From positions 1 through 53,688 of the forward strand of contig JAHDYR010000057.1 of the NCBI GenBank assembly GCA_019828565.1: a DNA stretch of 53,688 bases. Direction: 5' to 3'. The notes under the pieces are model-generated. The model ran no database searches. It saw nothing but the letters and a program-made list of their open reading frames with translations, and had not been told where the DNA came from. The DNA comes from Carpediemonas membranifera BICM (Eukaryota; Protista; Fornicata). Position 1 is the stretch's first letter. Each line of letters begins with the position of its first letter. Below are positions 26,323-53,688 of the stretch, one piece after another. A program made the translations under genes and the position numbers.

Positions 26323-26441
26323 AGCACGACGTCGATTGACTCCGAGCACCAGGCGTTCCCAGTTCCACGCCACAAGGTTGACGTAGAAGTCGTCGAGGAG
26401 GCTGAAGCTTTGGTCGAGTGGCTCGAGGTTCGAGAATGGCC
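26323..26441 (-). pseudogene. Inverted ~120-bp fragment copied from the Cdc20-like gene (6904-7029)
   Basis: Reverse complement reads …AAGCTTCAGCCTCCTCGACGACTTCTACGTCAACCTTGTGGCGTGGAACTGGGAACGCC…, near-identical to 6940-7029. Confidence 0.92.
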
Positions 26442-31962: not shown

Positions 31963-32275
31963 GGTAAACATAGGAGGAATCTCGATTAGGGTGGTGGTAG
32001 CTGCCTGCTGCTACCTCGTGGTGTTTGAGGGAAACGCAGATTAGTGCCGTTCGTTGTGTGCTATTGAAGGGTCGAACAATGTGTTTATACTGCGCAACAC
32101 TGCCCTGTCTCCCTCCTACTCACGTCTTAAGTCGGTAGGGAGATCGTCTTCTCCAGGGCTTCCACAAAGCGTCTTCTTCGTGGACGTCAGCGCAGCTGCA
32201 AACATCACAATCGCACACGTCGTCTCATTGTCTTCTATTCCACATTAAATTCACTTCTTGGACAACCCCAGGTCA

Positions 32276-32470
32276 ATGGGCCGTCTGCTCAGCCTGAGCA
32301 CCGATGGGGTCTGTGTGGCGGTGACGGTTAAGCGAGGCGGCCACTATCGACCACAACATGATGCGAGCATGCCTGTTCGAAAGCGAGCGAGGGGGCGGGA
32401 GAAAGAGCGCCCCCGACTCGGGACCAATAATGCCGATGCTCCGCCCGCGCCGGATCCTGATGCCCACCTC
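32276..32470 (+). pseudogene. Fanzor (TnpB-like) nuclease, N-terminal remnant left of the LTR insertion
   Basis: SLSTDGVCVAV matches the Fanzor1-type 'TDG.sv.v' motif; ends …PDAHL at the CCTC TSD and rejoins 38516 in frame. Confidence 0.8.
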
Positions 32471-32579
32471 TGTGCCTCGCTAATGCGGAGAATGCTTTTA
32501 TATGGAAAGAAGAGAAAACCCTTGTGCCAATAAATGGCTTAAACTGTATAAATGATTAGTGTGGTCTATGACCACCACA
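32471..32579 (-). repeat. 3' LTR of element A (109 bp)
   Basis: Direct repeat of 38400-38511. Confidence 0.95.
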
Positions 32580-33317
32580 CTGCCCCTCCATGCCTGGGTA
32601 ATAGGCATGACACTCAACGAGTTACGGGGGTTAGGTTGGCCTAGGGTCATCCGTGTTATAGTTTGGTGCCACCCAAGCTATGCAACGGTCTACTCCATTG
32701 GCAGTGGAGTGGGCAACGCCCGACCCGCGGTCTTCCGATACGGAATTATGGTATCACCAACGGTGACATGGGAATAAAACCCGACAGCTGTATATGATAA
32801 CGTGGATCCACTGTGTAAGCAATTGCTATGTTACGTGTTAAGATGGTCTTACCAGGGCTTCGCCGCCCTCATGAACCGCATATAGGGTCCGAACTTACCG
32901 ACGTCAATGACAGTCAAACGGACGGCTAGGGTTCGCCCGTATTCATAGAGGCTTATCCCTGCCCCTCCACGGCCTCATATGGCCGTGTTTCGAAAATTAT
33001 TACATGTTACGTAGGCTTCTAACGTAATTCGGGGGTTGATCTTGGCGTCTTCGTCAATAACACGAAGTACTGTACAATTTGCGCTAAAACTTACGTAGAC
33101 GCCGAAAAAGGCATTAATCGGCTCCGAAACGCCTTCGTTGGCGAGTTCTGGGCCTTTCTTTTTTCTTGGCGAGAACGTACTTCAATAACAACATCAGCTG
33201 GCTTCTGATGAAGCTAATAGGCTACAGCACTTGGTAAATAGATGAATTAGCTTGATTTGGCGTTCTATTATTGCTCTAGGTTTCGTCCTTGAGCCGATCG
33301 TTCCAAAAGTGCAGGAT

Positions 33318-34399
33318 ATGTCGTCGTCAACTCAGTTGATGTCGGACAACGCAGCCGTAGAGGCAATTCTGGATACCATTCGCGCGAAAATCGTCGAAAT
33401 TGGTGACGAGGAACTCACCAAGCCTCTTGTTTCCGCCCATTCCGCCGTATGTCGCTCTCTTCGTGCTCAAACACGTACTCAGCGCAAGCGCTTGGCCTCC
33501 GGTAACCTGTAAGTAACAAATATCAATCAACCACTCATCCAGGCACCGTGTACAAGCCGCAGAGCGTGTTACTCGACCCGTGACGGCATCTATGAATCTT
33601 CCCCGCGACATCAGAGCTGAGGTCTCCCGGCGCCTGAATGGCTACAGCAACTCGATTGAAATGCCTCTTCAGCGTATCTTCGACGCCATTGAGCAGGGTC
33701 GCCTCCACGACGCCGCGGTAGTCACCGATGTTAAGAAGTCTCGCCAGATTCTTAACCTCGTGGCTTACTGCCAGTTCGCTCTCGCTGGGGTGGTGACCCA
33801 CCTCAAGATCAAGCTGTGCCCGACGCTCACTGATGGCGATATCGTCTCAGCAGCCCTCCGGAGTGGCGACATCAGCCTGACCGGTAGTGGGCGCTACTCT
33901 GCCGGGCTCGTGGCCGCAGTTCGCGCTGCTGCCGGTGTCACGTCGGATACCACGGCTCGCGGATACCTCAACCGCCTGCTGATCCTCGTCCTCTCGCCCG
34001 ATTACTTCCGAGTGGCACTCTTCGGGATCAGCCGCTGCATCTCAGCTCCCAGCGCCTTCTGGGCGACCCTGGTCGACGAGCTGTGTCGCGAGGGTCACCT
34101 GCCTGCGATCGGTGACGAGGTCCACTGGGAGCCTATTCAGGTCTCGGACCCGGACCGTTACTACACCGTGACGTGTGTTGTCCGTCATGAATTCCTCAAA
34201 ACGACTCGTGGACCTGGGACCTTCGCTCTCATACTCCAGTATGAGGGGTTACTCTGGCCTCAGCATCGTCTGGCTGAACGCCGATCTCTGTCTCGTCCGT
34301 TGTGTGCGCGACTATCTTGCTGAGCACGATCTTGAGCGCCACGCTGACGCGTCTTGGTTGGTCGAGCTGACCGATACCGAGGAGTCGGACGACGAATAA
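33318..34399 (+). CDS. Antisense accessory gene inside element A (~348 aa after splicing 33509-33542 and correcting one extra G at 34245-34248); chromodomain-like C-terminus
   Basis: A GTAAGT…CCAG 34-nt intron joins ORF 33252-33512 to 33580-34323 in frame. The C-terminal part reads YTVTCVVRH…LILQYEG/YSGLSIVWLNADL…VRDYL, then an acidic tail. Confidence 0.7.
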
Positions 34400-34441
34400 A
34401 TCTGATGACTTGACGCTGGAGCGATTAGATGTGGTGAAGAT

Positions 34442-37400
34442 TTATAGACCGTCCAGTTTGGCTTGGTCAGACTTCAAATATATATCTAATGCTTCCAGGT
34501 CCTTGACGGAGTCCCAATCCTGCCATGTCGCCTCCTCGTCCTCGAAACCAGACCAGTGAACGCGGTATTCGCGTTTGGTTCGTGTTCCGTTCCCTCGCGA
34601 TTTGGAAATACGGTCCACTTCCCACTCATCGTTCGCCGTGGCGGCCAAGTCCTTGATCTCTCGCTCGGATAGATTGCCAGGGTTAAATCTGCGTACGCGC
34701 GAGGCGTCGACCTTCAATATCTTGCCTTGGCTTCCCTGGTTGAGGTCCTGAACTTCATAGGCGACCGTCACGCCATCTTGCTTAACCGCACTGACCCGTC
34801 GCATGGGCCCTCGCCATCCTGGCATCAGCTTGTTGGGAGGTCTGGCTGGGTACTTGACCAACACGAACCGGCACAGTAACTCCTGACGTGACGATGCGGC
34901 GTTTGCGAGAGCGTCCTCTCTCATTGCCTGAATTCTAGCCTTCGCTAGCTGGATGGCTTGGCCAGCCGCCGCGCGTCTGTCCTGTATTCTGGCGCTAGTC
35001 GAGTGGGTGCAGATGATGATCTCGTTCGGGATCCTGATGTTGACACCTAGTATGATCTCGGATGGTGAGAGGTGAGTGGGTATCCTGGGCGTCGAATTGA
35101 CGATAAATTGTGCGACAGGTAAGTGCTTGACCCAGTCCGCGTCCCGGAAATGGAACTTTCTGGCCTTCAAGATTTTGAGAACTCCACTGTTGGCCCGTTC
35201 GACGATGCCATTAGATTGCGGGTGATGTGGAGTCGTAACATGGGTGTGGAAACCCATCTCGTCGGCCAGGGACTTCATGAGCTGATTGTTAAACTCGGGC
35301 CCGCCGTCAGTCTGTAAGACCTCGGGGCAGCCATAGCGTAAGACCCAGTTATTAACGAACGCCGTAACTGCGGCTTGCGCAGTCGTACCTGTAACTGGAA
35401 CCAACTCGGTCCACCTACTACACATATCTATGATGACGGAGATGTGCGTGAACCCCTGCGACTTGGGGAACGGACCTAAGGTGTCGATGGCTACTCGCTT
35501 AAACGGTTCATCAACGGCGGTATGCAGACCATCCGGTGTATCGACGTGGGGTCTCTCGAGGACTTGGCACACCGGGCAAGCTGCAATCACCTGGTCGACT
35601 GCGGCTCTCGACACCGACAACCCTTCGGCTCTAAGCTTCTCGGTCGTTAGTCGTCGAGATAGATGGGCGCCGGCGGTGGTGTGTGCTTCTTCAATCTCAT
35701 CGGTCGTAGCTTTGCGAGTGAACATAGTAAACACACGGGACAGACCATCTGCGGCTCCATTGTCCAGGCCGGCGACGTGCTTAATCTCAAAGTCCAAGTC
35801 GGAAATGGCATCGGCCCACCTCCTGACTTTCGGGTTGATGCTACGGTACATGAAGGTAAGGTTTCGGTGGTCAGTGAGTATGGAGAAAGGTCCCCAGGCA
35901 AGGAACTTGCGCCAGCGCTGCAAGGCCGCCACAATGGCGTACGCCTCCTTCTCAATCGTTGACCAACGAGACTGTGTGGCGTTGAAGGCCTTCGACATGT
36001 AACAGACAGGCTTGCCCTCTTGCAATAGGACTGCGCCGTACCCCACTCCCGAGGCGTCGGTCATTATAGAATGCTCCTTCGTGGCGTCGAAAATTGCTAG
36101 GGCGTCAGCGGAGGTAAGGTTCTGCTTGAGCTTATCGAGGGCCTCCTGCTGGGCGGTCAGGCCGAGACTTGTGTGACCGGACATAGCTTTGATTAACGGG
36201 TGTCCGATTTCCGCAAAATGGGGGATGTGATCCCGGAAATAGTTGAGGAATCCTACTAGGCCCTGCATGCCCTTGATGGATGTCGGCATCTGGAGATTTG
36301 CGATGTCGTCTACACGGCTGGGTGCGATGCTCACCTGCCCATCATTGACAACCCAACCTAAGAACTCGACCTCCTGCCTGCCGAATTAGCATTTCTCGCG
36401 ATTGAGCTGGAGCTTGACCTTACGCGCACGGTCCAGGACTCTTTCGAGGTTCGCGAGATATTCGGCCTCGTCGCTGCCGAAGACAATAATATCGTCGATG
36501 TAAATGTAACATGAGCTGCCCACGAGCCCGGCGAAGGCGCGCTCCATGGCCTTCTGGAAGTGAGCTCCTGCGTTGCGCAGCCCGAAAGGCATCCGTCGGT
36601 ATTGATACTGCCCTAGTACGGTGGTAAATGCAGTCAGGGGTCTTGATCGTTCTGTCAAAGGGATCTGGTGGTACCCGGACGACAGGTCTAGAGTCGCGAA
36701 GATCTTCTGTCCTGCGAGCTGTGACAGCACCTCGTCGATACGAGGGATGGGGTAGTCGAACGGCTCAGTAAGCTCGTTAATACGGCGGAAATCGACTACG
36801 AAACGCGACTTGCCTCCCTTCTTAGGCACAGTCATAGCTGGGGAAGCGTATTGTGACTGGCAGGCCTCGATATATTTCTTGGCTAGCAGCGTGTCGATGT
36901 GCTCTCTCACGACGTGTATCTTCGCTGGGGGTACATAGTAAGGTCTGGCGTTCACGACCCGATCGTCCTTCAGAACGAGGTCGTACGGCTCTAGCCTGCT
37001 AGGTTCGTCCCGGTCTTGGAATAGATCGGAGAACCTCTTGATCAGTTCGGCTTGACTCTTGGTCGACTGGTCGGATAGACTAAAAATGGCAGCGTTGTGC
37101 TTGAAAGCTTCGGGGACCTGGACTTCGTCCGAGTCTTCCCCTGACTCTACGTTCACGTCGGGGAGGATTCCCAGCTCGACAAGGTGGGGGTACCCCAGGA
37201 CGACGTCGAACTCAGTATCTAGCACAATCAACTCCGGCTTGAAGGACACTGCCTTAGGTGTAAAGGCTGACGGCATGAGTTTGATGTTCCCTTGCACGGA
37301 ACCTTGGGACTGTATAGTTCCCTTGGCTGTACGCACGCTTCGCTCTTCATCTGATATACGCGTCATACCCTTGGTCAGCTTGGGGGATATAGTGGAGCAG

Positions 37401-38379
37401 TTGGCTCCCCGAATCAATCAAGGCAACGACGTCTCGACCCTCGACCTTAACTTTGCACAGAGGTAGGCTATCTTTGCGTTTGTGTGAAGTCATCGAGAAC
37501 AAGGACAAGTACTGTGGGGATTTACAGAACCTGTCAAGGTGTCCGCTCTTCCCGCACTTCTGACACTTGTTCTTGGGCTTCTTACACTCGTAGACGGCGT
37601 GACCCTTACCACCACAGTTATAGCAAATGAACTGTGAATGATCACGTCTGCCCTTCTTGTCGATAGGCTTAGTCGACGCGTGTTCAGGTCTGGTAGCATG
37701 CGAACGGTCTTCGGTGGGACGTGACTGAGGCTTGCGATCGTTGCGTCGGTGGGAGTTACGGCTCGTGTGGTGGTGCTCGGCGTTGGACGGCTTGTCCTGG
37801 AACGCGTTGGCGATCGCGGTGCTCTCTTGGACTGTTCTGGATAGGGCTAGAACGCGCGGCATGGCATCTTCTAGCGACATGTCCTGGATCACCTCCTTGA
37901 TGCGGTACATCGTCTGGTTGGATCCGAACTTGGAAACAACGAACGTATATGTCGCGTAGTGTCTCGAGGGGGAACTCGGGTTGGACGACTGCCATGGTAA
38001 TACGGAACTTCTTGTTGACTCGAGCAACTTCGATAGGGGAGAAGTCCTTGGCGGTGATTCTAAAGAGACGGAGCTTGTTGACTTCTTGAGTAGGTCTGAG
38101 AGCGCGTCCTAGGCGCTTGATGATCTTGAGGTCCTTCTGGGCTCTGGAGCGAGCGGCACGATGATGTTGATTAAGGAGGAGAGGGATCTCTTCCTCCGCG
38201 TCGTCAAGATCGTCCGCTGGTAGGATTGCTGTCACCATCTCCCGAACCTCGCTGTCGATTAGCTTCTCAATGTCTCGCTTGCCCCCTAAGGCGCGGTAAT
38301 CGTTGAACTTGTCCACAAAGATGAACAGTTCGTTCAGATCTGGCGACTTCAGCAACGGGGGATCGGATTTCTTCAGCAT
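34442..38379 (-). pseudogene. gag-pol of element A (two CCHC knuckles, protease, RT, RNase H, integrase, chromodomain); two frameshifts and one in-frame TAA as assembled
   Basis: CYNCGGKGHAVYEC, CQKCGKSGHLDRFC, ALIDSG, LDLSSGYHQI, YIDD, TDASG, TDHRNL, DGGPEF, SNGIVERAN, PGWRGP, WEVDRI…VHWSGF…TWQ. TAA at 36386-36388. Confidence 0.95.
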
Positions 38380-38399
38380 TTGAGGGGAATTAACGTTAA

Positions 38400-38511
38400 T
38401 GTGCCTCGCTAATGCGGAGAATGCTTTTATAGGGAAAGAAGAAGAGAAAACCCTTGTGCCAATAAATGGCTTAAACTGTATAAATGATTAGTGTGGTCTA
38501 TGACCACCACA
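38400..38511 (-). repeat. 5' LTR of element A (112 bp)
   Basis: Direct repeat of 32471-32579; gag ATG 20 nt downstream on the minus strand. Confidence 0.95.
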
Positions 38512-38515
38512 CCTC

Positions 38516-39334
38516 ATGGGGTTCGACCCGGGCGCAAGGTCCATCGGAGGGTATTACATCAGGCACCCCGATGGCACCACCAGCACCGGCGTCCTTCCAA
38601 AGTGCGGATACACTAAGACGCCAAGTTTCGGCTTTGATATGACGGCCGCGTCGTTCAAGAGCACAAGACTAGTGAGTATCAACAACTCTATTAGGTTTGT
38701 GCTGGACAACGCGAACGACATTTTCGAGGCTGGAATGCGTAAGTCTTTCCGCCGAGTGCGCTTTGCGAACCACATCCTTCGCCAGAAGCACTTCGCCCGC
38801 TGCGGCCAACAGTTGGCTCGGGAGTTCGGTTGGCGTCGCCACCATCCCATCGCCACCCCCATTCGCCTGAAAGTCTTCTACGGGAGCTCGGGATTCACCA
38901 CGCCTGCTGGTATGTTCATTCCTTGCGCGCCATATCGAAAGTTCGCGAGAGAGATTGTTCCCCTTCTCAAGGGGTATAACATTGTCGTCGATCTTAACAT
39001 GGTTAACGAGGATCGCACAACCGTCGTCTGCCCTCACTGCCACGCCCCCTACAAGCGAGTTCGTCCGCGTGATGACCAGCACGTTCACCCACATCGTGTG
39101 ATGCTCTGCGAAAATCCACAGTGCCGTGGTGCTCAGTGGCGCGCAACAGTTCCTGATGCTCTGAATGTTGATCATCGGGACAAGAGTGCTGCAGAGAACA
39201 TCTTGTGGCGTTCTCTTGCCACGGAAGATGAGCTCGGTGGCTCTCCGTTCAGTCGCACCTCGATCCCACGTCTTCAAACATCATTCCAGTATCATCAATT
39301 GGCTAACCGCCAACATTCGTCTACGGACGGATGA
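38516..39334 (+). CDS. Fanzor (TnpB/Cas12-related RNA-guided nuclease), RuvC/zinc-finger portion
   Basis: RuvC-I GFDPG; FRRVRFANHILRQK helix; VFYGSSGF; RuvC-II VNEDRTTVVCPHC; HRVMLCENPQC; RuvC-III HRDKSAAENI; terminal PFSR. Confidence 0.9.
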   Translation: MGFDPGARSIGGYYIRHPDGTTSTGVLPKCGYTKTPSFGFDMTAASFKSTRLVSINNSIRFVLDNANDIFEAGMRKSFRRVRFANHILRQKHFARCGQQLAREFGWRRHHPIATPIRLKVFYGSSGFTTPAGMFIPCAPYRKFAREIVPLLKGYNIVVDLNMVNEDRTTVVCPHCHAPYKRVRPRDDQHVHPHRVMLCENPQCRGAQWRATVPDALNVDHRDKSAAENILWRSLATEDELGGSPFSRTSIPRLQTSFQYHQLANRQHSSTDG

Positions 39335-39397
39335 TGTTGTGCAGTTTGGCACTTTGATCGTTCCCTGTCTGGGAGGTTCGAAAAATGTGTTTATACT
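39301..39397 (+). ncRNA. Candidate Fanzor omegaRNA scaffold
   Basis: Hairpin CAACATTCGTC-TACG-GACGGATGATGTTG (cUACGg tetraloop) overlapping the Fanzor stop codon, at the position expected for an omegaRNA. Boundaries uncertain. Confidence 0.4.
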
Positions 39398-39487
39398 CAA
39401 TTTATACACGCTCACGTAAACATCAGCAAAACCGCGCCCCGCGCGGCATGAGGTGACTTGTTGCCTGGTTAGATGGCCGCCGAAGCA

Positions 39488-40695
39488 GCCCCTGTCGGTT
39501 GAAATCATTTACAGTAAACCGCAGCGGGGTAAAAGTGGTCAAAACTGGACGGAGCAGTTTATAGACCGGTGACACTACCTCCCTTTTTGATGAGAAAACC
39601 CCCAACCTGCAAGGAACGGGGGAAAAAGATGGTTAGTAGAGTTTCAGGTTCTTCCTCGCCTTACGGGCCAACCTCTTCATCTCCTCGAGGTGTTTCACTC
39701 CCGAGAGTGGTTCTTCCGTTATGTTTTCGAATCCTACCCACTTGATGGCGGCTGTCCCTTCTTTCCAGTCTACCGATACTACTCGCTCTACCTCCCATTT
39801 TTTCTGGTCGAAGCTTGCAAGTTGAAGCATCATCGTGTCCGTTACGGCATCCGTGTCGAACATCATGAGTTTTTCAATGTGGGTTGATCTGGTCGATCCG
39901 TCGAGTATCGACTGCAGGACTATTCTGTTATTATCAAGTACATCGTGTACCTTCCATGGGCCCCTGTCGGTTGAAATCATTTACAGTAAACCGCAGCGGG
40001 GTAAAAGTGGTCAAAACTGGACGGAGCAGTTTATAGACCGGTGACACTACCTCCCTTTTTGATGAGAAAACCCCCAACCTGCAAGGAACGGGGGAAAAAG
40101 ATGGTTAGTAGAGTTTCAGGTTCTTCCTCGCCTTACGGGCCAACCTCTTCATCTCCTCGAGGTGTTTCACTCCCGAGAGTGGTTCTTCCGTTATGTTTTC
40201 GAATCCTACCCACTTGATGGCGGCTGTCCCTTCTTTCCAGTCTACCGATACTACTCGCTCTACCTCCCATTTTTTCTGGTCGAAGCTTGCAAGTTGAAGC
40301 ATCATCGTGTCCGTTACGGCATCCGTGTCGAACATCATGAGTTTTTCAATGTGGGTTGATCTGGTCGATCCGTCGAGTATCGACTGCAGGACTATTCTGT
40401 TATTATCAAGTACATCGTGTACCTTCCATGGGCCCCTGTCGGTTGAAATCATTTACAGTAAACCGCAGCGGGGTAAAAGTGGTCAAAACTGGACGGAGCA
40501 GTTTATAGACCGGTGACACTACCTCCCTTTTTGATGAGAAAACCCCCAACCTGCAAGGAACGGGGGAAAAAGATGGTTAGTAGAGTTTCAGGTTCTTCCT
40601 CGCCTTACGGGCCAACCTCTTCATCTCCTCGAGGTGTTTCACTCCCGAGAGTGGTTCTTCCGTTATGTTTTCGAATCCTACCCACTTGATGGCGG
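39488..40695 (-). repeat. 472-bp tandem repeat (~2.6 apparently identical copies) of the 3' end of element C: integrase tail + chromodomain + PPT + 82-bp LTR
   Basis: Units start at 39488, 39960 and 40432. They encode RGPWKV…WEVERVV…IKWVGF. PPT AAAAAGGGAGGTAG precedes a TGTC…GACA LTR at 39493-39574, 39965-40046 and 40437-40518. Confidence 0.92.
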
Positions 40696-43600
40696 TGTGA
40701 CCCTAAACTGCGGGAGTTGGTTGCATAAAACTCATTCGTAACACGGCACAATATCGATATTACCGGTGAAATGAAGCAATTCACGACTAATGATCCAGAA
40801 AGCGCAATCCAGGCGCTCGCGGATTACACCACTGCAATTATCCACGAGAGAAACCCAACTTCTTTCATCCAAACGCTCACAGCGGACACGGTCGCGAAGT
40901 TAAAGCGTGATTGGCGTCCGACAGCGAAATTTCCCACTCTTGAGAGCCTCCAGACCTCCATTATGTCTGACGCCGAAGCCCGAGCTCAGGCCCGTTCGGA
41001 CGAGGCTCCGCAAGCTATATCCCACAATCCCACCGCAGATGCAATCGCCAAGCGTTTCGCTGCTGCCTTTGAGGCGGCCTGCAAGCGAGCGCAGTACGCA
41101 GAGTGTGTGCGGGTCTCTTCAAACTTCAAGGACCCGGCCCTCACCAGCCTGACAAAGGAGTCAATCTCGGCAGAGATACAACGCGCAATCCCGGAGGCCA
41201 CTGAGAAGGCCAGGACATTCATCACCTCGTACATGAAGGACCCCGCGGCCAACAGATGGTCCGACCTCTTCAGCGCCGCAACCCCGACTGTCCCCGTGCC
41301 TGACGGGACCGACATGACACTCCCAGATTTCTCTGACAAGGTCCCGGAGCCCACCATAGATGAGAAGCCCGACCTGGCCGCCTGGCCAAAGCGTGCTGAT
41401 TTCCCCGACGTTTACGCTTACCTCCGCGCCGAGGCAAAGGCGATCATCCCCTACATCGTTTATACGCTCCTACCGACCCTCGACATGGGATCGAGACTGA
41501 AGATGGTGCGCGACAAGGCATCCGGCCTTAGATTCTTCGGCCCAGCCGTCGAGCACCGACTCGCCGTCTTCAAGCTACGTAGGATCCTCAACGCTTACGA
41601 TCCATGCGTCCCAGACATCGAGGCACTAACCTACAACTCGACCGAGCGCTTACTGGGGTCGATCTTCCTCAAGGGCTATAGCAAGGACGCCGAGGCTCTT
41701 TACGAGGACATCATCGAGGACCCAGCCGAGTCAATCGACGATCTTCTTTCTCGCCTCGAGAACCTCGACGTCGATCACGACGAACGCGTTATTGTCCCGT
41801 GGCGGGCGTTCGCGGTAACATCCCAACCCGCCGACCAGAAAGACAGCGGCCGTCGCGCCCCTGGCAAGCAAAAAGCCGACAGTACTGCCCCATACAAGCG
41901 ATCCCTATCTCCAGTTCAAAGACAAGCACAAGTATGCCATCCCACAGCACTTCAACAAGTGGTGCAAGTCTCATGGGTGGATCAGTAACCATACGACAGA
42001 GTCATGCAGGTTCCTCGCACGGCAGAAGGACAACCAGTCCAAGGGCACCTCCGGCTCCTCTCAGCCGCGGAAGAACGACCAGAAGCAGACCAGCGGTACG
42101 CAGTCCGACCGTCGGGCCGGCAACATGTTCCTGAGGGACTCCTCAAAGCTTCGCAACTCGCGCGGCCAGCGCGACGTCCATGAAGTCGACAACAACGCCT
42201 CAGATGACGCCGAGTCCGAGGACGAAGGTGACGTCTATGAGGTGGGGGCTGTTGAGATCGACAACGACCCCATCAACGTCCCGGCCACGATCAACGGTGT
42301 CCAAATCAAGACGAAGTTCGATATCGGAGCCTGCGTCTCAGTCATCTCGGAGCCCGCACTAGCGAAGGTCCCGAATTACCAGCTCATCGACACCTCAGTC
42401 GAGCTCTTCGGCGCCGGCGACGAGGTCATCTCCATCGGTAAGGCCGCAAAGGTCGACATCACTCTCCCGTCTATCGATGGCAAGACCGTGCAGGCCACCG
42501 CATTGCTGATGGTGATCCGCGCCAAACGCCGAAAGGTCCTGATCGGCCGCGACCTCCTCAGAAGGTTGGGCTACCTCATGAACGACAGACTGCTGATCCC
42601 GTCATCCGCCACCATCTCCGACAACGACAATCTGCCTCCACACCCGTATCTCGACTCCTGCACAGATGAGATTGATGTTGATAACGAGTGGAAGAAGGTC
42701 CGAATCCCTTACGATGACAATCCAGACCTCACTAAGTGGCTCGAAGGCTTCCTATACGAACGCCGCGAGCTCTTCGGCGAGCTGCCAGAGGACGGCAGCG
42801 AGTTGCGTCCACACAAGATCACCCTGAAGCCTGGCGACCACAGGCTCCAGAAGGCAAGACCACGCCCCCTTAAGGGTTCCCAAGCGTCCAGCGCCGCCGC
42901 TGAAATCGACAAGATGCTCCAACAATTAGTCATCCGCCCAAGTGACTCGCCGTACTCATCCCCACACGTGATGGCGAAGAAGAAGAACGGTGAGGACAGG
43001 TTCTGCGTCGCGTATAACGTTCTGAATGAAGCCACCGAAGACGATCGCTACCCGACACCAGATATCCGCTCCTTCGTCCATGAGGCAAGCGGCTGCTCAC
43101 TCTTCGGCACGCTCGACCTCCGAAGCGGCTACTGGCAGCAACGTATGGACCCCGACAGCGTCTCACTCACCGCCTTCACTATCCCAGGCGGTCATTACGA
43201 GTTTCTTCGTACCCCCTTCGGGCTCAAGAATGCCCCGGCCAAGTTCCAGAGAGCGATGGACGAGGTGTTGGAAGACTGCAAGAGCTCCAAAGCCTACGTC
43301 GACGATATCTTCACTTACTCGCACACGGAGGAAGAGTTCAAGAGCGCCATCACGGATCTCTTCGATCATCTACTGGCGGCCAACGTCAGACTGAAGGCCG
43401 ACAAGTGTGCCCTCGGCCTCTCCGAGGTTGAGGTGTGCGGCTTCATCGTTAACGAGATGGGCAGATCCGTTGCCCCCGCTCGAGTCCAGGCCATCCGCGA
43501 CCTCTTTCCTCCGACCACCACGTCGGAACTCCGTCGATCCCTCGGCAAGTTCAACTACTTGTCGAATTACATTCCCCATCTCGCCGACGCCGCAGCACCT

Positions 43601-45560
43601 CTCAACCGGCTGCTTAAGGGCTCTCCGGGGAAGTCGTCCCCCGTGGCCTGGGGCGCCGAGCAGGACGCCGCTTTCGCTAAGATGAAAGACCTGGTCACCG
43701 AACACACGGCGCTCGCCCTCCCAGACTTAGACAAGCCCTGGACCTTGGAGACCGATGCCTCCTCAGTAGCGATCGGCGGGGTCCTCTGGCAGGGCGAAGG
43801 AGTTGAGAAGGTTCCCCTCGCTTTTTATTCCAAGACCTTGGACGAGACTCAGCAAAGGTGGTCGACCGTCGAACAGGAGCTTTACGCGATCATCCACTGT
43901 GTAACTCGACCGGAGTTCTCAGCCCTCCTTAAGATTAAGCCGTTCTCTCTCAGAACCGATCACCGGAACCTTATTTGGCTCCTGAGAAAGACGGACGAGG
44001 AGGGCACGAAAAAGCTTACTCGCTGGCGCCTGACAATGACCGAATACCCCTACTCCATCGCCCACATCAAGGGCGTCCACAATGTCGTCGCCGACTCGCT
44101 GTCCCGTCCTAGCAGCGTCCCAGAGGACCGAGACGACCTCAAGGCCGCTATCGAACAGGTCTCCAGTTCTCACCGTCACCTCATCAACCAGGCCCACGCC
44201 GGTGCACAGGGCCACGTCAGCGTCGCTCAGACGATGGAAAATCTCCGCAACGCCGGGCAGTCTTGGCCCGACATGAAATCGGACGTCCGGGGAGACCCTC
44301 AGAAGTTGCGCCGTCTGCCAGAAGGTTAGACCCCCTGCCCGCGAGAAGACGAAGTGGCACTCCACGCAGCGACTCAAGCCCTTCGAGACGGTCCAGCTTG
44401 ACACAATAGGCCCCCTTCCGGAAGAGGCCGGCATGTCCTACATCATCACGATCGTGGATGTCTTCTCCAAGTTCACGATCCTCCGTCCGGTCGCTACTAC
44501 AAAGGCCGAAGAGGCTGCAGCAGCGATGCTGGATGTGTGGTCCACGTTCGGAGTCCCAAAGGAGATTCAAACCGACCAGGGCACTCAATTCCGTAACGCC
44601 CTCATTGCCGAGTGTAACGCCATCATCAGTCTTCAGCACAGGTTCTCAACCCCTTACCATCCGGCCAGCAACGGAGTCGTTGAACGACTCAACGGCACGA
44701 TCATGTCTCGCATGAGAGCGCTCCTCCTAGACGCAGAGGACGGCAACTGGCCCGCCTATTTACCGCTCGCTCAACACGTCATCAACTCTACCCGCCACGC
44801 CACCACCGGTCGCTCCCCTTTCGAACTGCTGTTCGGCAAAGAATCGACGCTACGGGTCGCCCCGATCGCTCTGGCAAACGCCACGAAGAGCTGCACCCCT
44901 GGGAGCGTTGATGAAGGTGAGATTGTCCGCTTCCAGGAGGACGTAGCCGCTCTACAAGCCCTCGCCCGCGTCAAGATTCGCGCGTACGAGGCGCGCAAGG
45001 CCAAGGCCACAGCAGACACTCATGCGTGGGAGAGAGAACAATACGTTCTCCTGCGCTACCCGGGCAAGCCCCCGGCTAAGATCTACACCCCCCTGCGCGG
45101 ACCCTTCCGCATGGAGGGGAAGGGCGAACACCCGAACACCTACCGCGTCCGTGACCTCGTCACAAGATGCGTCAGCACGGTCCACGCCGACAGACTGGTC
45201 CGATTCGAGACCGATTTATCCGACACCGAGCTCGAGCGGATCGCCGCTTTCGAGCAAGGCGAACAGCCCGTCAAGGAGATCGTCGGTCACAAGAAGAAGA
45301 AGAACGGCTCATTGGAGCTCCTCATCCGTTGGGAAGGCCTCACACCCGACGAAGACTCCTATGTACCCTATAACCGGTACTATGACCAGCTAGCGGCTCT
45401 CGATGATTACCTCGTCGCTCATCCAGAGCATGAAGCCGCGTTCGCCGCCGCCAAGAAGAAGTTCCGCAGTTCCGGGCGCCGTTAATGCGTCCGCATGGGG
45501 GGAAGTGTGACCCTAAACTGCGGGAGTTGGTTGCATAAAACTCATTCGTAACACGGCACA
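40696..45560 (+). mobile_element. Element B: full-length Ty3/Gypsy chromovirus with identical 55-bp LTRs; no TSD
   Basis: TGTGACCCTAAACTGCGGGAGTTGGTTGCATAAAACTCATTCGTAACACGGCACA at 40696-40750 and 45506-45560; PPT GGGGGGAAG at 45497-45505; flanks GGCGG / GTTCG differ. Confidence 0.95.
40771..45485 (+). CDS. gag-pol of element B (CHHC knuckle, protease, RT, RNase H, integrase, chromodomain); two 1-nt frameshifts as assembled (~41870-41895, ~44290)
   Basis: WCKSHGWISNHTTESC lies in the pol frame; FDIGA, LDLRSGYWQ, YVDD, ETDAS, TDHRNL, TDQGTQF, SNGVVERLN, RGPF, VKEIVGH…IRWEGL. Confidence 0.93.
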
Positions 45561-46059
45561 GTTCGAAGTTATCTCACATGACCAGGATATCTACACGTTG
45601 AAGAATCCTGCCGATGAGAAGCCGTTGAAGTTTCATATTTCCCGCTTGCTGCCTTATACCTCTCCCGAAGTACCTGTAGACGATGTTACGTTGGTTGCCC
45701 TGGATTCTGACGAATATCCAGTTGAAAAGATCGTTGCACACCGCAAGGGAAAGACGAAGTCTCGTTGGCAGTTTAAGGTCCGTTGGGATGGCTATGGCCT
45801 GGGAAGGCAAATTCGGGTCCGGGGTCAGATACCAAGCAATCTTAAATTTCTTTCTTTCTTTCTTTCGGATGGCTATGGCCCCGACGACGATCAGTGGCTC
45901 GCGTACCACGATGTGAAGGACCTCAAGGCCCTGGATGAGTATTTGGAGGCTCATCAGGAGCTTCGCCTTTAGGTGGGAAGTGTCGTGCAGTTTAAGGTTA
46001 TGGTCTGCGAACCCAACCTGCGAACCCAATAAACACAGCATCAACCAACTGCTTTAACA
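45561..46059 (+). mobile_element. Element D: 3' remnant of another chromovirus (integrase tail, chromodomain, PPT, ~79-bp LTR at 45981-46059)
   Basis: FHISRLLPY, EYPVEKIVAHR…FKVRWDGYG/PDDDQW; stop at 45972; purine-rich tract AGGTGGGAAG followed by TGT…ACA. Confidence 0.8.
45800..45866 (+). mobile_element. 67-bp retroposed insertion (5'-truncated LINE/SINE-like) with (TTTC)5 tail and 14-bp TSD
   Basis: GGATGGCTATGGCC at 45786-45799 and 45867-45880 flanks an insert ending in TTTC x5. Confidence 0.8.
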
Positions 46060-47820
46060 TGGAACATTGCCACAACGGTCGAGTCGTCTGTCTGGTGTTT
46101 GATGAGTGTGTCATGGTAGCGGGAGTCAATCGTGATGGCTGCGACAGTGGGCGAGGTCGAGTGACCGCAGCGGCTCAGCGCGTCTGCGACTGCGTTCTGT
46201 GTTGAGAGGTTTGAGGATTCGTGATGAGTCCGGGACGAACTGGGCGACATAGTTGAATGATCCCAGTGTCCTCTGAAGCTCCTTTGCGGTGGACGGGAGC
46301 GGTATGGCGTTTACCGCCTCTACCTTCTCTGGGGCAAGTTGTTTCCCCTTCTCCGAGACAATATACCCGACGGCCTCGACGTGGGCTGAGCCTATCGTGC
46401 ACTTCGGGCCTTTAAGGCGCAGTGAATAATGTCTACAGATCCTGAAGACGGTTTTGATCAGGGTGAGAAACTGGGCCTCGGTCTTGGCGTAAATCAAGAT
46501 GTCGTCAAGATAGATGTCCACCCCTTTGTGGAGGACCTCGGCGAACGCCTTCTGCATGGCGCGTTGGAATCTCGCCGGGGCGTTCATCAGGCCGAATGGA
46601 CATCTGGTGAACTCGCAGTATGCGTCTGGAGTGACAAAAGCGGTTTTGGGGATATCTTCCTCGTGCATCCGCATCTGGTAGTAGCCTTGTCTGAGGTCTA
46701 GGCCTGCAAAGTATTTGCAGCCTGATGCTCGGTCTACAAACTCGCGCGTGTTAGGCAGGGGGAAGTTATCCCTCACTGTCTTGGAGTTTAACTCCTTGTA
46801 GTCAATGCAAAGACGGATCTTGGTCGATCCTTTGTGGCCCTGCCTGACTACTACGATCGGCGAGCTGTACGGCCCAGTCGAGTCCTGGATTATCCCGTCT
46901 CGCCTGAGTTGTTCTAGCTCTGTCGACACCAGGCCTTGGGTCACTGGGTCGAGTCTGCGAGCGCGGCATTGTACAATTGCCCGCTCGTCTATCAGTTCAA
47001 TCGACATGGGTTCCAGTCGAGACCCTTCCTTGGGTAGTTCTTCCTCGAAGATATCGTCAAATGAGTTGATTATCTCGAGAATCTCGGGTCGGATCTTCGA
47101 CTCCGGGACGTGGACACCACAGTAGTCGTCGGTTATCGCCATGTTTGCGTCCTCCGTGAGATATTCATGGTAGAACGGCAGCCAGTCCTCGTCCTCCTCA
47201 ATTGAGGAGAGCTTGTGCAGGTTAAGGTTGAGTGTGCCATCGCCAATGAGTGCGAGTGACCTCAGCAAGTCACACCCGATGAGAGCCTTGAAGAACTCAC
47301 CGGGGAGTACGTAGTACTTCCATGTAACCTCCAACGGTGTGACACCTAGTGCTGGGAATGCTGCCTTAAATGTGACTGCTTGATCTGTCACGAGGGAGCG
47401 TCCGTCTCCTAGCGTGACCTTGATCTTTTCCTCGAGAGAGGTCTGCACTGTGTCCTTGGGTAGGGTACGTAGTGCCTTCGAACTAATGAAGCTTCGGCTT
47501 GCACCAGTGTCTACAACGAACGAGTAAGTTTTGCCTTTTACAGTAGCGGGGGTCGTCAGTGGACCCTTCCCGCCCTTCTCGTTAGTCGACGCGCTGTCGG
47601 CGTTGTTGTTCTCGCTGTAGCGGGGGTGCTTATCGCATCTGAAGTCCATGTGGGGACCGCCACAGAAACGACAGGGGCGCGACGGCTTCTTGGGTCCGTC
47701 GGCCGGCGGGCGCTTGGCCGCGTCCGGGCGGTACTGGGCCTTCCTGGCCTGGGCCGGGGCCTTGGGTCCGCCGGCCGGGGTTTGCGAGAGGGGTTGATCA
47801 TGGTCATACGCCCTACATAC
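46060..47820 (-). mobile_element. Element E: internal Ty3/Gypsy fragment (gag tail, protease, RT; RNase H mostly deleted)
   Basis: CRFCGGPHMDFRC, VVDTGAS, LDLRQGYYQM, YLDD. The sequence jumps from LKPL to QNAVADALSR and is truncated on both sides. Confidence 0.88.
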
Positions 47821-48072
47821 TGTCAACATCCCTAGATTATCTTTGCTAAACCCTAGATTATCTTCGACCTCAAAACGCTAGATAATCTACAATTTCTTGC
47901 TCAGAAATGAAGTATTCATTAAATTTAAGCTATTTAGAGATAAACGAAGGTCTTCTTTAGAGTCCATATGATGTACGTAGAGCATGGAAAGAAGCTCTGG
48001 CTCTGACTCCTTGCCTGGTTTGAGCATTTCGCCGTGCAGGTTAAGACGAAACGATAAAATGGACAATAACAG

Positions 48073-48176
48073 AAAATCTAACAGGTAGATTCACTACGAT
48101 AGTGATTATGTGAGTAGTTGAAAGGAGGTACATATGCGCATAATCACTTTCAGAGTGAATCTACCTGTTAGATTTT
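48073..48176. repeat. Long hairpin: perfect 23-bp inverted repeat enclosing a second 10-bp stem
   Basis: AAAATCTAACAGGTAGATTCACT (48073-48095) / AGTGAATCTACCTGTTAGATTTT (48154-48176); inner AGTGATTATG (48101-48110) / CATAATCACT (48139-48148). Confidence 0.9.
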
Positions 48177-49754
48177 GAGATATGGTCGATTTCTTGTTTT
48201 TTGACTTGGCTAGAGTCGAATTGAAGAAAAGGAGAGGCTATTACTCAGGGAATATTGCTCGTCAAAGAAAAGCAAGCAAGGCCGCGAGGTATGGCCACCC
48301 GACCTACAAGATGGGCTGGGTGACATCGCGTAAGGACGACTGGTCTTGCGCGGTCAACGCTGACAAAACTTAGCGATTCAGAGAAATAAATGGCGCCACC
48401 GTATTCAGCACAAGGCAGTGAACTCAGCTATATGTTTTTTTCTCAGTATATTTACCCAGCGGCTGATCCCACAGTTTAAGGACGGGTATTAGCCTGCACT
48501 TTGCATGAAAAAATTATGCCTGAACACGACCAATTATCCAAAACACAGCATTTAGCATGCAACAGGAGCTGGAAGCAGCTGCAACATCTATTCTAGGCCA
48601 TTCCACAACCATTACGCAAGAAATTGACGCAATAGAGGCCATTCAGTCCCATTACTTCATAGATTCACGCTTGAACGATATTACGAGCCTTATCAGGCGA
48701 GAAACAAGAAAGCTGAACGCGATTGGTGACTCCTTTCTCGCTGAGACATATGCAGCATACTGACAGCCACGACACGCTGTTCAAGCAGATTTAAGGGAGC
48801 GCCATCACCAAACACGTAAATAGACCTGTATACGACAACCAGAGACGGACGTATGAGTCAGAACGGTGTGCTACCGGAATACGCAGGGTGTTTTGTGCCC
48901 TGTTGATTCCAGGAGCACGCTGCTCTGGGCCACGTGAGATACCGCGAGACTAAATCCGATCTTTACTATCTCTTACATATGCAAATATCATGAGTGTGTC
49001 CCTGCTCGTGAATGGGAACATCCAGCCAGTCTGAGTCAAAGCTACGGTCTGCTTTCGACAAGACAGTGCGCCATAGGCCGTTGACTAAACACCATGTGCA
49101 GCTTTTGGCACTCAGTCGACCTCTGTTTGAAGGTCAAGTGGATGGTCTATGGAAGAAGGTGTTGAGGTAGGGCTCGTGTTTGACGGGCAATGAGGAAGGA
49201 GAGATCTCACTGGATGTGTGCATCTGCGGCAAGTATGAGTAAAGAATGAAAACATGATTGGTAGTTATAGATCGCGAGAATAGGCATTCTCATCTGCATT
49301 GCGGAGAAAAGGAGTTGATGTTGTATTAAGAAAAGGACGAATGCATTATCAGCCATTTGAATGCATGGCTCCAAACTACACGCGTTTTGGCGTTGATATT
49401 GATTATTAAATGCACTGTTGGTAGCCTATTGAGGGATTTCGTCACTGTACTCGAATGCACAAGTGTGCATTTTATGCTCGCAACGAGACTGAAATGGCGA
49501 ACTGACGAATAGAAAGAATACGCTGCAAAAGGGGGCACAATGCGCTCAGAGAGCGATACTGCCGACAGTATCGTCTTTTCCTTCATCTGACATTGTAAAG
49601 AGGAAGAGTTTATGATTGGAGCATAGCTGATGTCCATAAACACCATTCATAAGCCAGTCCTGGCTTGTTTTCCACTGCTACTTCTCTCGTTGCGACGCAC
49701 AGCTAGCTGTCGCGAAATGCACTTTAAGACCAATTTTCACACAGCTACCTGTGC

Positions 49755-49977
49755 ATGGTGTTCGAGCTAGATAGCGACAAGCTGGAGCGACTTACTTCCT
49801 TACCTGGTAATAGTAGACAATATCTGCACGACTTTGAACCTGAAAAGCTGCAGGTCGTGATCAAAGTTGATGAGCATTATGGTATGGAGGTTCCCACCCT
49901 GCTAGCGCTCAAGGACAGTCCGCATGTCCTCCCTGTCGTCGATACAGGTTTTGTCGACCGTGATCCAGCCTATATGC
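49755..49977 (+). pseudogene. Possible protein-kinase N-lobe fragment
   Basis: QVVIKV…MEVPTLLALKDSPHVLPVVD resembles kinase subdomains II-IV; interrupted by an inverted-repeat element. Confidence 0.3.
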
Positions 49978-50308
49978 GGTATTGCAATTTCAGAATTTCG
50001 TACATACAAAATTATCAAATACTTGGATTCGACCTAAACTTGGCTCAGATCCGCAATCCTGAGCTGGAGTGGGTTCATGGGAACATTTTAAAATTTTAAA
50101 GTAGTCATGAACATCCAAATTCTAAGACAATCTCCGGTACTGGAAGTAATTCTGAAATTGCAATACCAACACAAGTTATATTTCTGAAAACCGAATACAC
50201 GGTGATACTGTTATCTATTAGCTCCAGTAGGGACCCAGGCCAGGTTTTGTACACCCTACCCGCTTGCCTCGGAATTCGGACATGCCGAAATTCTGAAATT
50301 CGAATACC
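49978..50308. repeat. MITE-like inverted repeats
   Basis: GGTATTGCAATTTCAGAATT (49978-49997) pairs perfectly with 50148-50167; a 23-nt extension pairs at 21/23 with 50286-50308. No TSD seen. Confidence 0.6.
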
Positions 50309-51120
50309 ACCGCCCATTTTTGACGTATGAGATCAGTATCCCATGCCAAACCTCAGGACGGCATTGTGTACCTTGTCCTGCCCTGTATCCATTAGATAAC
50401 CACCCACTTTCCTTTCACAATGTGCATTTTATGCTCGCAACGAGACCGAAATGAGGATCTTAAGAATAGAAAGAATACTGGCGGCTTTAACGTAGTAGGC
50501 ATGCACATATCACTAAGAAACATCAGTAAGCGAGCGCAGAGCATCATTAAAGCAACAATTATCCCTAAACAACATCAACAACTATAAGTCCACTAGGACC
50601 ATACGATATGAACTATAAATGAACCACAGAGCAGTATAGATGATTTGAGAGTACCAGGCATGGCCAGAATACCGCAATACTCGCCCGTTGATCCACGTGA
50701 CCTCCATCTTGGTCGGTATCCAGAGAACGCCCGTCAGACGCTTGCAACGGAACATTTAGGGGTGCATCCTGAATAGGGCCAGATTTGAGGGACCCTTGGT
50801 CTGATATGTCATGACCGAGTTCTCTAGGGGCCTCCACAGTGCGTCCCGAGGTACGTTAGAGCACCACAGACCTTCCCCCAAAAGCTGACTCCTGGACCCC
50901 TTGGCCGGAGCTCGCCCGAAGCGTGCCTCGGCTTGAACTAACGGCAAGAGAGCATAAAATCAGCCCTTTCGAACCGTGTTTTTATGCTCTGCTGCCGTTA
51001 TAGAATTATTCAAAGGGCCCTCTCTTTGCGCTTTTTTTCTGGTTCGTGGGACGAAGTAGGGACGGACAAAAAGCACATACGGAAGGTATTGGAGGTACTG
51101 AGGCCGCCCTAGGTACATAG

Positions 51121-53072: not shown

Positions 53073-53688
53073 AGAGTAAAGGATTGATATACCGACCGTA
53101 TCGCTTATGTTTATGTGACCTTGAGGTTGATTCGCGGTTTGTAGGTGGGTATGGTGCTATATTACTCAGCCTGCTGTATATGTCTAGTCTACAGCCTGTA
53201 TGCAGCTGTCTGTGGTGGTAAATATCGTCGGCTGGCCGAGAAAGCATAAACTGCACACTTGTGCATTCGAGTACAGTGACAGAAATCCCCTCAATATGCT
53301 ACCAGCAGTGCACTTAATAACCAATATCAACGCCAGAAACGCGTGTAGTTTGGAGCCGTCCAGTTTTTGCGCTAGTAATGCCTCCAAAACCCTTTTAATC
53401 AACATCATCTTCTGTTATCGACCATGTCAACGAGAATGATCAGAATAAACGACGATTTGGCACTGAATGAACCTTGTAATGAGACTGGTCAGAAGCCTGT
53501 GGACTTCGCTCGCAGCTCTCCGTCGCAACATCAAAGATCGTCATCGAGGACATGAAGATCGGAGGCTCGAGGCTCGAGGCGCTCAAAATCAGCTCGGCTC
53601 AGCTCGGCACTCAAAACTCAAAAGGCGAAAATCGGAAATCAGGCGAGGCTCGAGACTCGACATCAAAATCCGGCAGGCTTTTGCGTAG

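What the first reader, a model, noticed from the sequence alone, without database searches (positions are those of the whole stretch)
32276..39334. Hidden Fanzor RNA-guided nuclease split in frame by a chromovirus insertion
Seen: removing element A and one CCTC TSD gives …GAT GCC CAC CTC|ATG GGG TTC GAC CCG GGC… (DAHL-MGFDPG), a continuous 337-aa ORF from ATG 32276. It has the TDG motif, all three RuvC acidic residues (FDPG, VNED, HRDK) and a CxxC…CxxxxC zinc finger. Established: these motifs typify TnpB/Fanzor OMEGA nucleases, and the TDG, RF..HI.RQK and PFSR motifs look Fanzor1-like. Inference: the N-terminal REC region is missing (in-frame TAA at 32246-32248), so this copy is probably 5'-truncated and inactive, but it implies a Fanzor family in this protist lineage. 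No partner transposase is visible.
Basis: partly seen in the sequence, partly recalled or inferred. Interest (0 to 1): 0.82.

Follow-up and report, generated by a model that had tools for sequence, protein, structure and literature searches.

The report
Broken Fanzor copy, large protist family
This is a real but broken copy of a gene for a predicted RNA-guided DNA-cutting enzyme (Fanzor1), split by a retrotransposon, from a large and barely described mobile-element family of the protist Carpediemonas whose unusual direct-repeat ends and predicted guide-RNA hairpin make it testable.

Summary
Observation confirmed. Removing the 6,041-bp chromovirus (32471-38511) and one CCTC gives a stop-free 337-aa frame, 96% identical to an unsplit paralogue from Carpediemonas membranifera. 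DPG, the shifted glutamate, the C4 finger and RD are intact; Atlas, Foldseek and profile comparisons point to a very divergent Fanzor1.

Correction: the copy is not 5'-truncated. It keeps the element's left end (32057-32258) and lost about 1 kb internally, so ATG 32276 is an internal methionine. Its right end is also clipped by 8 nt. It is dead as a nuclease.

The family is large: 126 annotated proteins fetched, three subfamilies, 4 near-full-length with the triad. The ~2.3-kb element shows no transposase and no inverted repeats; the same 28 nt stand at both ends in direct orientation. The family-type 3' end folds into a G-U-rich hairpin running from the stop codon to the terminus (z -5.6), a likely omegaRNA scaffold.

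One paralogue is already a raw Fanzor HMM hit in a 2023 supplementary table; my searches found no description of the family. How it moves is open; rolling-circle mobilisation in trans is my best guess. No activity was tested.

The parts
32057..32099 (+). Left terminal unit of the Fanzor element, 43 nt, TG...CA; its last 28 nt (32072-32099) are repeated in direct orientation at the family's right end
   Evidence: Contigs stop aligning at 32056-32057 with differing flanks; repeat not found in 100 shuffles
32100..32258 (+). Left subterminal region / 5' leader; predicted hairpins; on the minus strand 32100-32121 is a 19-of-22 purine tract ending AG before TGT
   Evidence: Intact copies continue past 32258 into the true N-terminus (P0046 start); fold z -3.0; purine tract
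32258..32260 (.). Internal deletion junction; about 1 kb (about 295-320 codons: WED-I and REC) missing, size inferred from paralogue proteins
   Evidence: Loose ends on both sides in X1 and X2; 298 aa precede this Met in P0039
32260..32470 (+). Fanzor remnant, piece 1: TDG strand and linker; ATG 32276 is an internal Met
32467..32470 (+). Target-site duplication CCTC (left copy)
32471..38511 (-). Chromovirus-type Ty3/Gypsy LTR retrotransposon (element A); LTRs 38400-38511 (5') and 32471-32579 (3'); gag in two frames, in-frame stop inside RT at 36386-36388
33318..34323 (+). Extra antisense gene inside element A, 323 codons when a 34-nt GT..AG intron (33509-33542) is removed; no Pfam match
   Evidence: Joint in X1 and X2
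38512..38515 (+). Target-site duplication CCTC (right copy)
38516..39334 (+). Fanzor remnant, piece 2: RuvC-I (D at 38525), RuvC-II (E at 39008), C4 zinc finger, RuvC-III (D at 39179), stop
39314..39397 (+). Predicted omegaRNA scaffold: a short stem-loop over the last codons, then a long hairpin from 39335 that closes at the family's terminus; here it lacks the last 8 nt and carries a 9-nt deletion. 39378-39397 is the partial right repeat
39398..40694 (-). Unrelated repeat that replaces the Fanzor terminus: likely the 3' end of another chromovirus, with a 472-bp unit in tandem
   Evidence: 39392-39490 matches P0088 at 97%; repeats; chromodomain-like frame read by eye, no Pfam match

Best explanation
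The locus is a broken copy of a multi-copy, ~2.3-kb mobile element of Carpediemonas membranifera whose single gene is predicted to encode a divergent Fanzor1 RNA-guided DNA nuclease, and intact copies likely use an RNA from the element's 3' end plus flanking sequence to cut element-free alleles, which would be repaired by copying the element back. Shown: (1) the two pieces are one gene split by a later chromovirus insertion; (2) the catalytic motifs are intact; (3) the copy keeps its left end, lost about 1 kb of the N-terminal half and 8 nt of its right end; (4) the family is large and full of internal-deletion copies; (5) the same 28 nt stand at both ends and the flank varies right after the right-hand one. 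Predicted: the 3' ~80-100 nt fold into the omegaRNA scaffold and the next ~15 nt of flank are the guide. Inferred from other Fanzors: DNA cleavage next to a TAM, then homologous repair, favoured in a host reported to lack Ku-dependent end joining. Least certain (about 0.3): movement to new sites is done in trans by a rolling-circle HUH enzyme (Replitron- or Helitron-like) acting on the direct repeats and the hairpin. This copy cannot make a working nuclease.
For: Join and motifs. Fanzor fingerprint DPG plus E six residues before the finger, found in under 1% of TnpB homologues (PMC10711439 passage), is met. Atlas first hits 0.97-0.98 to giant-virus and fungal clusters with TNB/DUF8286 (one source). 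Foldseek ranks 1-6 of 500 are PpFz, SpuFz, GtFz (E 0.02-0.09). Family profile against a viral Fanzor1 alignment: probability 93, E 2.8e-7, 318 columns; that alignment hits the three Fanzor1 structures at 1e-50 to 1e-68 and no Fanzor2. Against a Fanzor2 control set (checked): probability 67, 71 columns; TDG in 6 of 7 Carpediemonas, 9 of 9 Fanzor1, 1 of 38 Fanzor2 rows. Ends and deletions. Hairpin z -5.6 (0 of 300 shuffles), -7.6 with the 9-nt variant, -1.0 for the clipped window copy. SpuFz1 has a 75-nt scaffold and 14-15-nt variable guide (PMC10432273 passages). Direct terminal repeats plus a right-end hairpin typify Replitrons (PMC10288648 passages); CRe-1-3 Fanzor1 Helitrons show the same internal deletions (PMC3627910 section 8); the species has geminivirus-like Reps and Helitron-type endonucleases and lacks Ku (PMC8516963 passages).
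Against: No curated family match: Pfam TNB at best E 0.016, below cut-off, none in NCBIfam; phmmer over 1.84 billion representatives returned 20 hits, all of this family by sequence. Both AlphaFold models are poor (pLDDT 37 and 41), so the Foldseek ranks are weak. The viral Fanzor1 set was picked by the E-RTS-C motif; without that region the profile signal drops to probability 9, E 0.0035, and single-sequence scores fall within the shuffle range. The stretch after DPG is about 16 aa shorter than in viral Fanzor1 (73-74 against 89-92 aa), which could impair activity. Only 4 of 126 fetched proteins have both N-terminus and triad, all subfamily C. The folded right end is a composite built from other copies' evidence, not a sequenced copy. 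The Reps were reported as not expressed; Replitron-1 repeats are 6 bp, not 28; no Carpediemonas entry in that paper's supplements. Ploidy, TAM and TSD were not determined.
Confidence: 0.68

Rival explanations
1. Same nuclease, but the element is a tiny-LTR, non-autonomous retroelement moved by chromovirus enzymes, with Fanzor carried antisense as element A carries its extra gene.
For: Left unit is TG...CA and ends GCACA like the LTRs of elements A and B; on the minus strand it follows a 19-of-22 purine tract ending AG|TGT, as do 4 of 4 chromovirus-like 3' LTR junctions compared in the window; 69 of 107,332 positions have such a tract. LTRs here are only 55-112 bp.
Against: The two ends are not identical (43 against 28 nt) across copies, which LTR reverse transcription should erase; the purine tract is also one arm of a predicted hairpin; a 2026 review states there is no evidence for retrotransposon-encoded Fanzor (PMC13565253 section 20).
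Confidence: 0.2
2. Self-propagation without any transposase: the guide is fixed and is the terminal repeat itself, so Fanzor cuts dispersed solo copies of the 43-nt unit and the break is repaired from an element copy.
For: Some contigs match only 32057/32063-32087/32099 and run off on both sides, as solo units would; many internal deletions fit aborted gap repair; host relies on homologous repair.
Against: The repeat is the 3' arm of the predicted scaffold hairpin, so it is more likely scaffold than guide; the element would cut its own left end; those contigs may simply be right ends of other copies.
Confidence: 0.12
3. Ordinary non-autonomous cut-and-paste element with TGT...ACA ends moved by a DDE transposase elsewhere in the genome, with Fanzor restoring excised copies.
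For: Most Fanzor1 hosts are DDE transposons; both ends read TGT inward.
Against: No inverted repeat between the two termini: the best inverted match is 11 nt and lies at 39335, not at the end.
Confidence: 0.12
4. The family is nuclease-dead or decayed throughout, and the Fanzor frame is a passenger of an element amplified by other means.
For: Most annotated copies are fragments (31 of 126 hold all three catalytic motifs); shortened helix region; very long branch (2.8 changes per column).
Against: D-E-D and the C4 finger are kept in three subfamilies only 39-44% identical, which implies long selection; some frameshifts may be long-read assembly errors (not tested).
Confidence: 0.15

Closest known systems
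Fanzor1 nucleases SpuFz1, GtFz1, PpFz1 (PDB 8gkh, 9cer, 9cf0) and giant-virus Fanzor1
   Same: 600-650 aa; collinear motifs from the N-terminal strand through TDG, DPG, FR[RK], YG, E-x6-C4 finger and RD; predicted scaffold directly 3' of the gene.
   Different: Only 13-17% identical to the viral set; about 16 aa shorter after DPG; no inverted repeats (Spu-1 has them); 28-bp direct repeats instead.
CRe-1, -2, -3 Fanzor1 non-autonomous Helitron2 families of Chlamydomonas (PMC3627910)
   Same: Tens to over a hundred copies, no own transposase, frequent internal deletions.
   Different: No Helitron-like end or TTTT target recognised here (left flank TTCGTTG); direct repeats are not described for CRe elements in the section read.
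Replitrons (PMC10288648)
   Same: Direct repeats at the termini, right-end hairpin, alignment extending beyond a repeat in some families.
   Different: No Rep gene in this element; repeat 28 bp against 6 bp in Replitron-1; no Fanzor cargo described in the passages read.
[quoted passage not shown]
   Same: Same subfamily, 272 aa, 95.2% identical to the window's piece 2.
Chromovirus (Ty3/Gypsy) LTR retrotransposons
   Same: Element A: LTRs, 4-bp TSD, RT-RNase H-integrase-chromodomain order.
   Different: Very short LTRs, a 10-bp palindrome where the primer site should be, and a spliced antisense gene.

Membership tests
Fanzor (TnpB family, eukaryotic) | DPG at RuvC-I | tested here: met
   FDPG, D at 38525; definition
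Fanzor (TnpB family, eukaryotic) | RuvC-II glutamate six residues before the zinc finger | tested here: met
   E-DRTTVV-CPHC
Fanzor (TnpB family, eukaryotic) | D-X(125,275)-[TS][TS]-XX-C4-X(5,50)-RD | tested here: met
   Spacers 163 and 17; definition
Fanzor (TnpB family, eukaryotic) | Eukaryotic genomic context, not contamination | tested here: met
   Neighbours API5, cNMP-binding, tubulin, CDC20-like, ribosomal S3; all named homologues are C. membranifera
Fanzor (TnpB family, eukaryotic) | RuvC/WED/REC fold | tested here: inconclusive
   Models at pLDDT 37 and 41; Fanzor1 structures rank 1-6 but E 0.02-0.09; wide search dominated by helical bundles
Fanzor (TnpB family, eukaryotic) | Structured omegaRNA at the 3' end with a variable 14-15-nt guide | tested here: inconclusive
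   Conserved hairpin ending at the terminus and variable flanks; the RNA itself not observed
Fanzor (TnpB family, eukaryotic) | TAM-dependent, RNA-guided DNA cleavage | not testable with these tools
   Needs bench work
Fanzor1 | Long REC-containing protein, closer to Fanzor1 than to Fanzor2 | tested here: met
   Full-length paralogues 606-642 aa; profile probability 93 against 67; HMM bits 11.5-15.8 against 0.6-5.3; TDG 9 of 9 against 1 of 38. The Fanzor1 set was motif-picked, so partly circular.
Fanzor1 | Nests within the Fanzor1 clade on a tree | tested here: inconclusive
   Quick tree gives three separate groups, Carpediemonas on a 2.8-long branch, no outgroup
Fanzor2 / IS607-type | Serine recombinase partner and closeness to TnpB | tested here: not met
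   No recombinase among the window ORFs scanned; weaker profile match
Replitron / HUH rolling-circle element | Terminal direct repeats and right-end hairpin | tested here: met
   longer than the 6-bp repeat described
Replitron / HUH rolling-circle element | Rep transposase encoded, or an autonomous partner sharing the ends | not testable with these tools
   None in this element; no whole genome held
LTR retroelement (for the Fanzor element) | Two identical LTRs | tested here: not met
   43-nt left unit, only 28 nt shared
LTR retroelement (for the Fanzor element) | Polypurine tract, primer site, TSD | tested here: inconclusive
   Tract present but also a hairpin arm; TSD unreadable because the right end is clipped
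Chromovirus (element A) | LTRs, TSD, RT-RNase H-integrase-chromodomain | tested here: met

The most novel reading that the evidence does not exclude
Carpediemonas carries a class of Fanzor1 element bounded by direct repeats, with no transposase of its own, that is either the first retrotransposon-borne Fanzor (tiny LTR and polypurine tract, moved by chromoviruses) or the first Replitron-type Fanzor element. It has reached over a hundred annotated gene fragments by RNA-guided homing in a eukaryote that lacks end joining and ORC, where its programmed breaks could also feed the recombination-based replication proposed for this organism.
Probability: 0.2. Interest if true: 0.82.

Novelty: new variant of a known kind. 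Interest (0 to 1): 0.5.

Why it matters
The split itself is ordinary nesting of transposons. What it exposes is a very divergent, high-copy Fanzor1 family in a metamonad, a group absent from the main text or supplements of the Fanzor surveys I searched except for raw table rows in one. It comes with named near-full-length members (for example KAG9394109.1, 642 aa), a mapped terminus and a predicted scaffold, so TAM and activity can be tested directly. The direct-repeat ends match no Fanzor host element that I found described, and the host's reported lack of Ku and ORC makes it a good place to ask what Fanzor does for a eukaryotic transposon, which is still open.

Tried and rejected
No whole genome was held, so copy number, TSDs, target motif and partner transposase could not be read from DNA. 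Pfam, NCBIfam and PDB sequence searches gave nothing significant for the family alone. No relatives outside this family in the three word-index searches, the representative search, viral contigs or metagenome contigs; C. frisia and other fornicates did not appear, which is weak evidence. Single-sequence and 26-row AlphaFold models were poor; the VIA wide search returned helical bundles only. The tree's careful search did not finish and the quick tree cannot place the family. No Rfam match at the ends. The window's own right end does not fold better than shuffles. No run is on record as RNA; X1 and X2 skip a GT..AG intron, which suggests RNA, but this is not proof that the Fanzor family is transcribed, and contig depth was not used as copy number or expression. 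Parts without contig cover (34437-37373, 39398-39485) were not used as evidence. X1, X3, X4 are one sample, X2 gives nearly the same figures as X1, and X5 (organism B) laid only 4 contigs and none on the API5 flank, so none counts as independent support or as a second species. Rejected: 5' truncation (left end present); an intron explaining the upstream TAA (intact copies diverge exactly at 32260); terminal inverted repeats; split-direct-repeat DIRS layout (the left 15 nt occur once). One read-through protein (P0108) leaves the right-end sequence before the repeat, so not every copy has it. Earlier scan notes on this genome concern other elements. Ploidy was not found in the passages read.
Full report
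Host and setting. The window holds closely packed, mostly intron-free eukaryotic genes to about 32 kb and a transposon nest beyond. Every named homologue of the nuclease is from Carpediemonas membranifera, up to 97% identical, so I take that as the host. The 272-aa second half is already a called protein in the collection.

The insert runs 32471-38511, with LTRs that differ by one substitution and one 3-nt indel, flanked by CCTC; the empty-site reading from ATG 32276 is 337 aa without a stop and 95.8% identical to P0010 206-539. 40 of 126 fetched paralogues are unbroken at the junction, and a contig in X1 and X2 reads straight across it. The insert has RT, RNase H, integrase, chromodomain and a zinc knuckle; it has a stop inside RT and gag in two frames, which may be decay, recoding or assembly error.

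The protein is a Fanzor, most likely Fanzor1. It meets the two published fingerprints: DPG with the glutamate six residues before the finger (PMC10711439, passages) and the long D...TS..C4...RD motif (PMC3627910, passages), tested. Standard libraries barely see it: Pfam TNB at best E 0.016, nothing in NCBIfam, weak Cas12f rows in the PDB, and only its own family among 1.84 billion representatives. The ESM Atlas gives 0.97-0.98 to giant-virus and fungal clusters. Foldseek on a poor model (pLDDT 41) puts PpFz, SpuFz and GtFz at ranks 1-6, E 0.02-0.09. I fetched 16 viral loci by a recalled motif; an alignment of 8 full-length frames matches the three solved Fanzor1 proteins at 1e-50 to 1e-68 and the Carpediemonas profile at probability 93 over 318 columns, collinear end to end. 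A control set of 38 proteins from 77 loci (12 of them checked as Fanzor2 against 9b0l) scores lower. With the motif region removed the Fanzor1 signal is weak (probability 9; Fanzor2 0.3) and single-sequence scores are no better than shuffles. The quick tree does not place the family. The region after DPG is about 16 aa shorter than in viral Fanzor1.

The family. Of 129 proteins held, 128 matched: 44 subfamily A (including the window's two pieces), 21 B, 63 C; subfamilies are 39-44% identical. This is a floor, since large clusters were listed only in part; several fragments may come from one locus. Against 8,300 predicted proteins (PMC8516963 section 6) it is about 1.5%. 31 of 126 hold all three catalytic motifs and 4 also hold the N-terminus (606-642 aa, all C).

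Contigs align from 32057 to 32258 and then continue into the true N-terminus, while others enter at 32260 from the codons for LTEEQKRRYR (proteins). So the copy kept its left end and lost about 1 kb inside; ATG 32276 corresponds to residue 299 of P0039. Other deletion forms exist: 32180 to 32426, 32446 to 39158, about 32225 to 38848 and 32135 to the linker (P0099). The intact element is about 2.3 kb by inference.

The ends. The motif at 32072-32091 recurs at 39378-39397 and in none of 100 shuffles (score 18 against at most 13 in 200 shuffles). In other copies the right end runs on through the full 28 nt and then diverges: 4 read-through proteins (P0037, P0046, P0110, P0111) and two different contig flanks; P0108 leaves earlier. 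The window's copy stops 8 nt short, where another repeat begins. Read-through peptides show a related motif at both ends in subfamily C (P0062, P0077 left; P0088 right, my reading of translations). No terminal inverted repeat was found.

Likely omegaRNA. With the last 8 nt supplied as in other copies, the stretch from the first base after the stop codon to the terminus folds as one hairpin, z -5.6, or -7.6 with the 9-nt variant seen in contigs; a smaller stem-loop overlaps the last codons; the clipped window copy gives -1.0. Several pairs are G-U, which suits RNA more than a DNA inverted repeat. SpuFz1 has a two-stem 75-nt scaffold followed by a variable guide, and GtFz1's overlaps its last 17 codons (PMC10432273, passages). 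This is a prediction on a composite sequence.

How it most likely works. Intact copies would make a ~635-660-aa nuclease and a 3' RNA whose guide is the local flank, cut element-free alleles and be copied back by homologous repair; the species is reported to lack Ku and DNA-PKcs (PMC8516963, passages). Movement needs a helper in trans. Direct repeats with a right-end hairpin recall Replitrons (PMC10288648, passages and outline), and the deletion pattern recalls the CRe Helitron-Fanzor families; the species has geminivirus-like Reps and Helitron-type genes, though reported unexpressed. I put this at about 0.3. The LTR reading has real support (TG...CA unit, purine tract ending AG|TGT like four chromovirus-like junctions here) but the ends are unequal. 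Order of events at this locus: the chromovirus insertion is recent, judged by its LTRs; whether the deletion came first cannot be told.

What is in print. Full-text searches for Fanzor with Carpediemonas, Fanzor with Metamonada, TnpB with Carpediemonas, and Fanzor with homing and direct repeats found 0 papers; Fanzor with terminal direct repeats found only the Replitron paper. Supplements of PMC10432273 (9 files; one scanned file not searched) and PMC10530073 (2 files) do not name the species. PMC10711439 lists paralogue KAG9392881.1 in its raw hit table and one other, unrelated-looking C. membranifera protein in Table S5. PMC13565253 (passages and section 20) says no retrotransposon is known to encode Fanzor. 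Also seen as passages only: PMC10530073, PMC11423790, two preprints (their supplements are closed). Repbase and subscription papers were not searchable and may hold the family.

Verdict. A real, dead copy of a divergent Fanzor1; detection is not new, but the family's size, ends and predicted RNA appear undescribed. New variant of a known kind; interest 0.5.

Noticed in passing
window 33318-34323 (+): Element A carries an antisense gene of 323 codons with a 34-nt GT..AG intron that contigs in X1 and X2 skip; no Pfam match. A second GT..AG skip (32598-32948) appears at lower depth.
   Followed up: partly
window 38390-38399 and 40751-40760: Both chromoviruses have a 10-bp palindrome (TTAACGTTAA, ATATCGATAT) directly inside the 5' LTR instead of a tRNA primer site; possibly a self- or dimer-priming signal.
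   Followed up: no
window 40696-45560 (+): Second chromovirus with identical 55-bp LTRs, coding region in three overlapping frames, no matching TSD.
   Followed up: partly
window 39488-40731: A 472-bp unit repeated about 2.6 times, first two copies identical, holding a chromodomain-like frame on the minus strand; tandem duplication or assembly artefact.
   Followed up: partly
window 45561-47877: Fragments of two more LTR elements: a chromodomain end with its LTR near 45980, and protease-RT on the minus strand.
   Followed up: no
window 49343-53381: About 4-kb element with ~140-bp imperfect terminal inverted repeats and a broken acidic ORF near 51121-52400; no Pfam match.
   Followed up: partly
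window 6930-7020 and 26330-26420: 91-nt inverted pair, 97% complementary, one arm inside the CDC20-like gene; possibly a captured gene fragment.
   Followed up: no
window 48057-48192: 54-nt arms forming a long imperfect hairpin in an AT-richer stretch.
   Followed up: no
P0006 (KAG9394045.1): A subfamily C Fanzor is named 'cytosine deaminase' and P0054 'chromosome partition protein Smc' in public records; both look like misannotations.
   Followed up: no
L006/L007: Viral Fanzor1 frames with DPN in place of DPG at RuvC-I.
   Followed up: no
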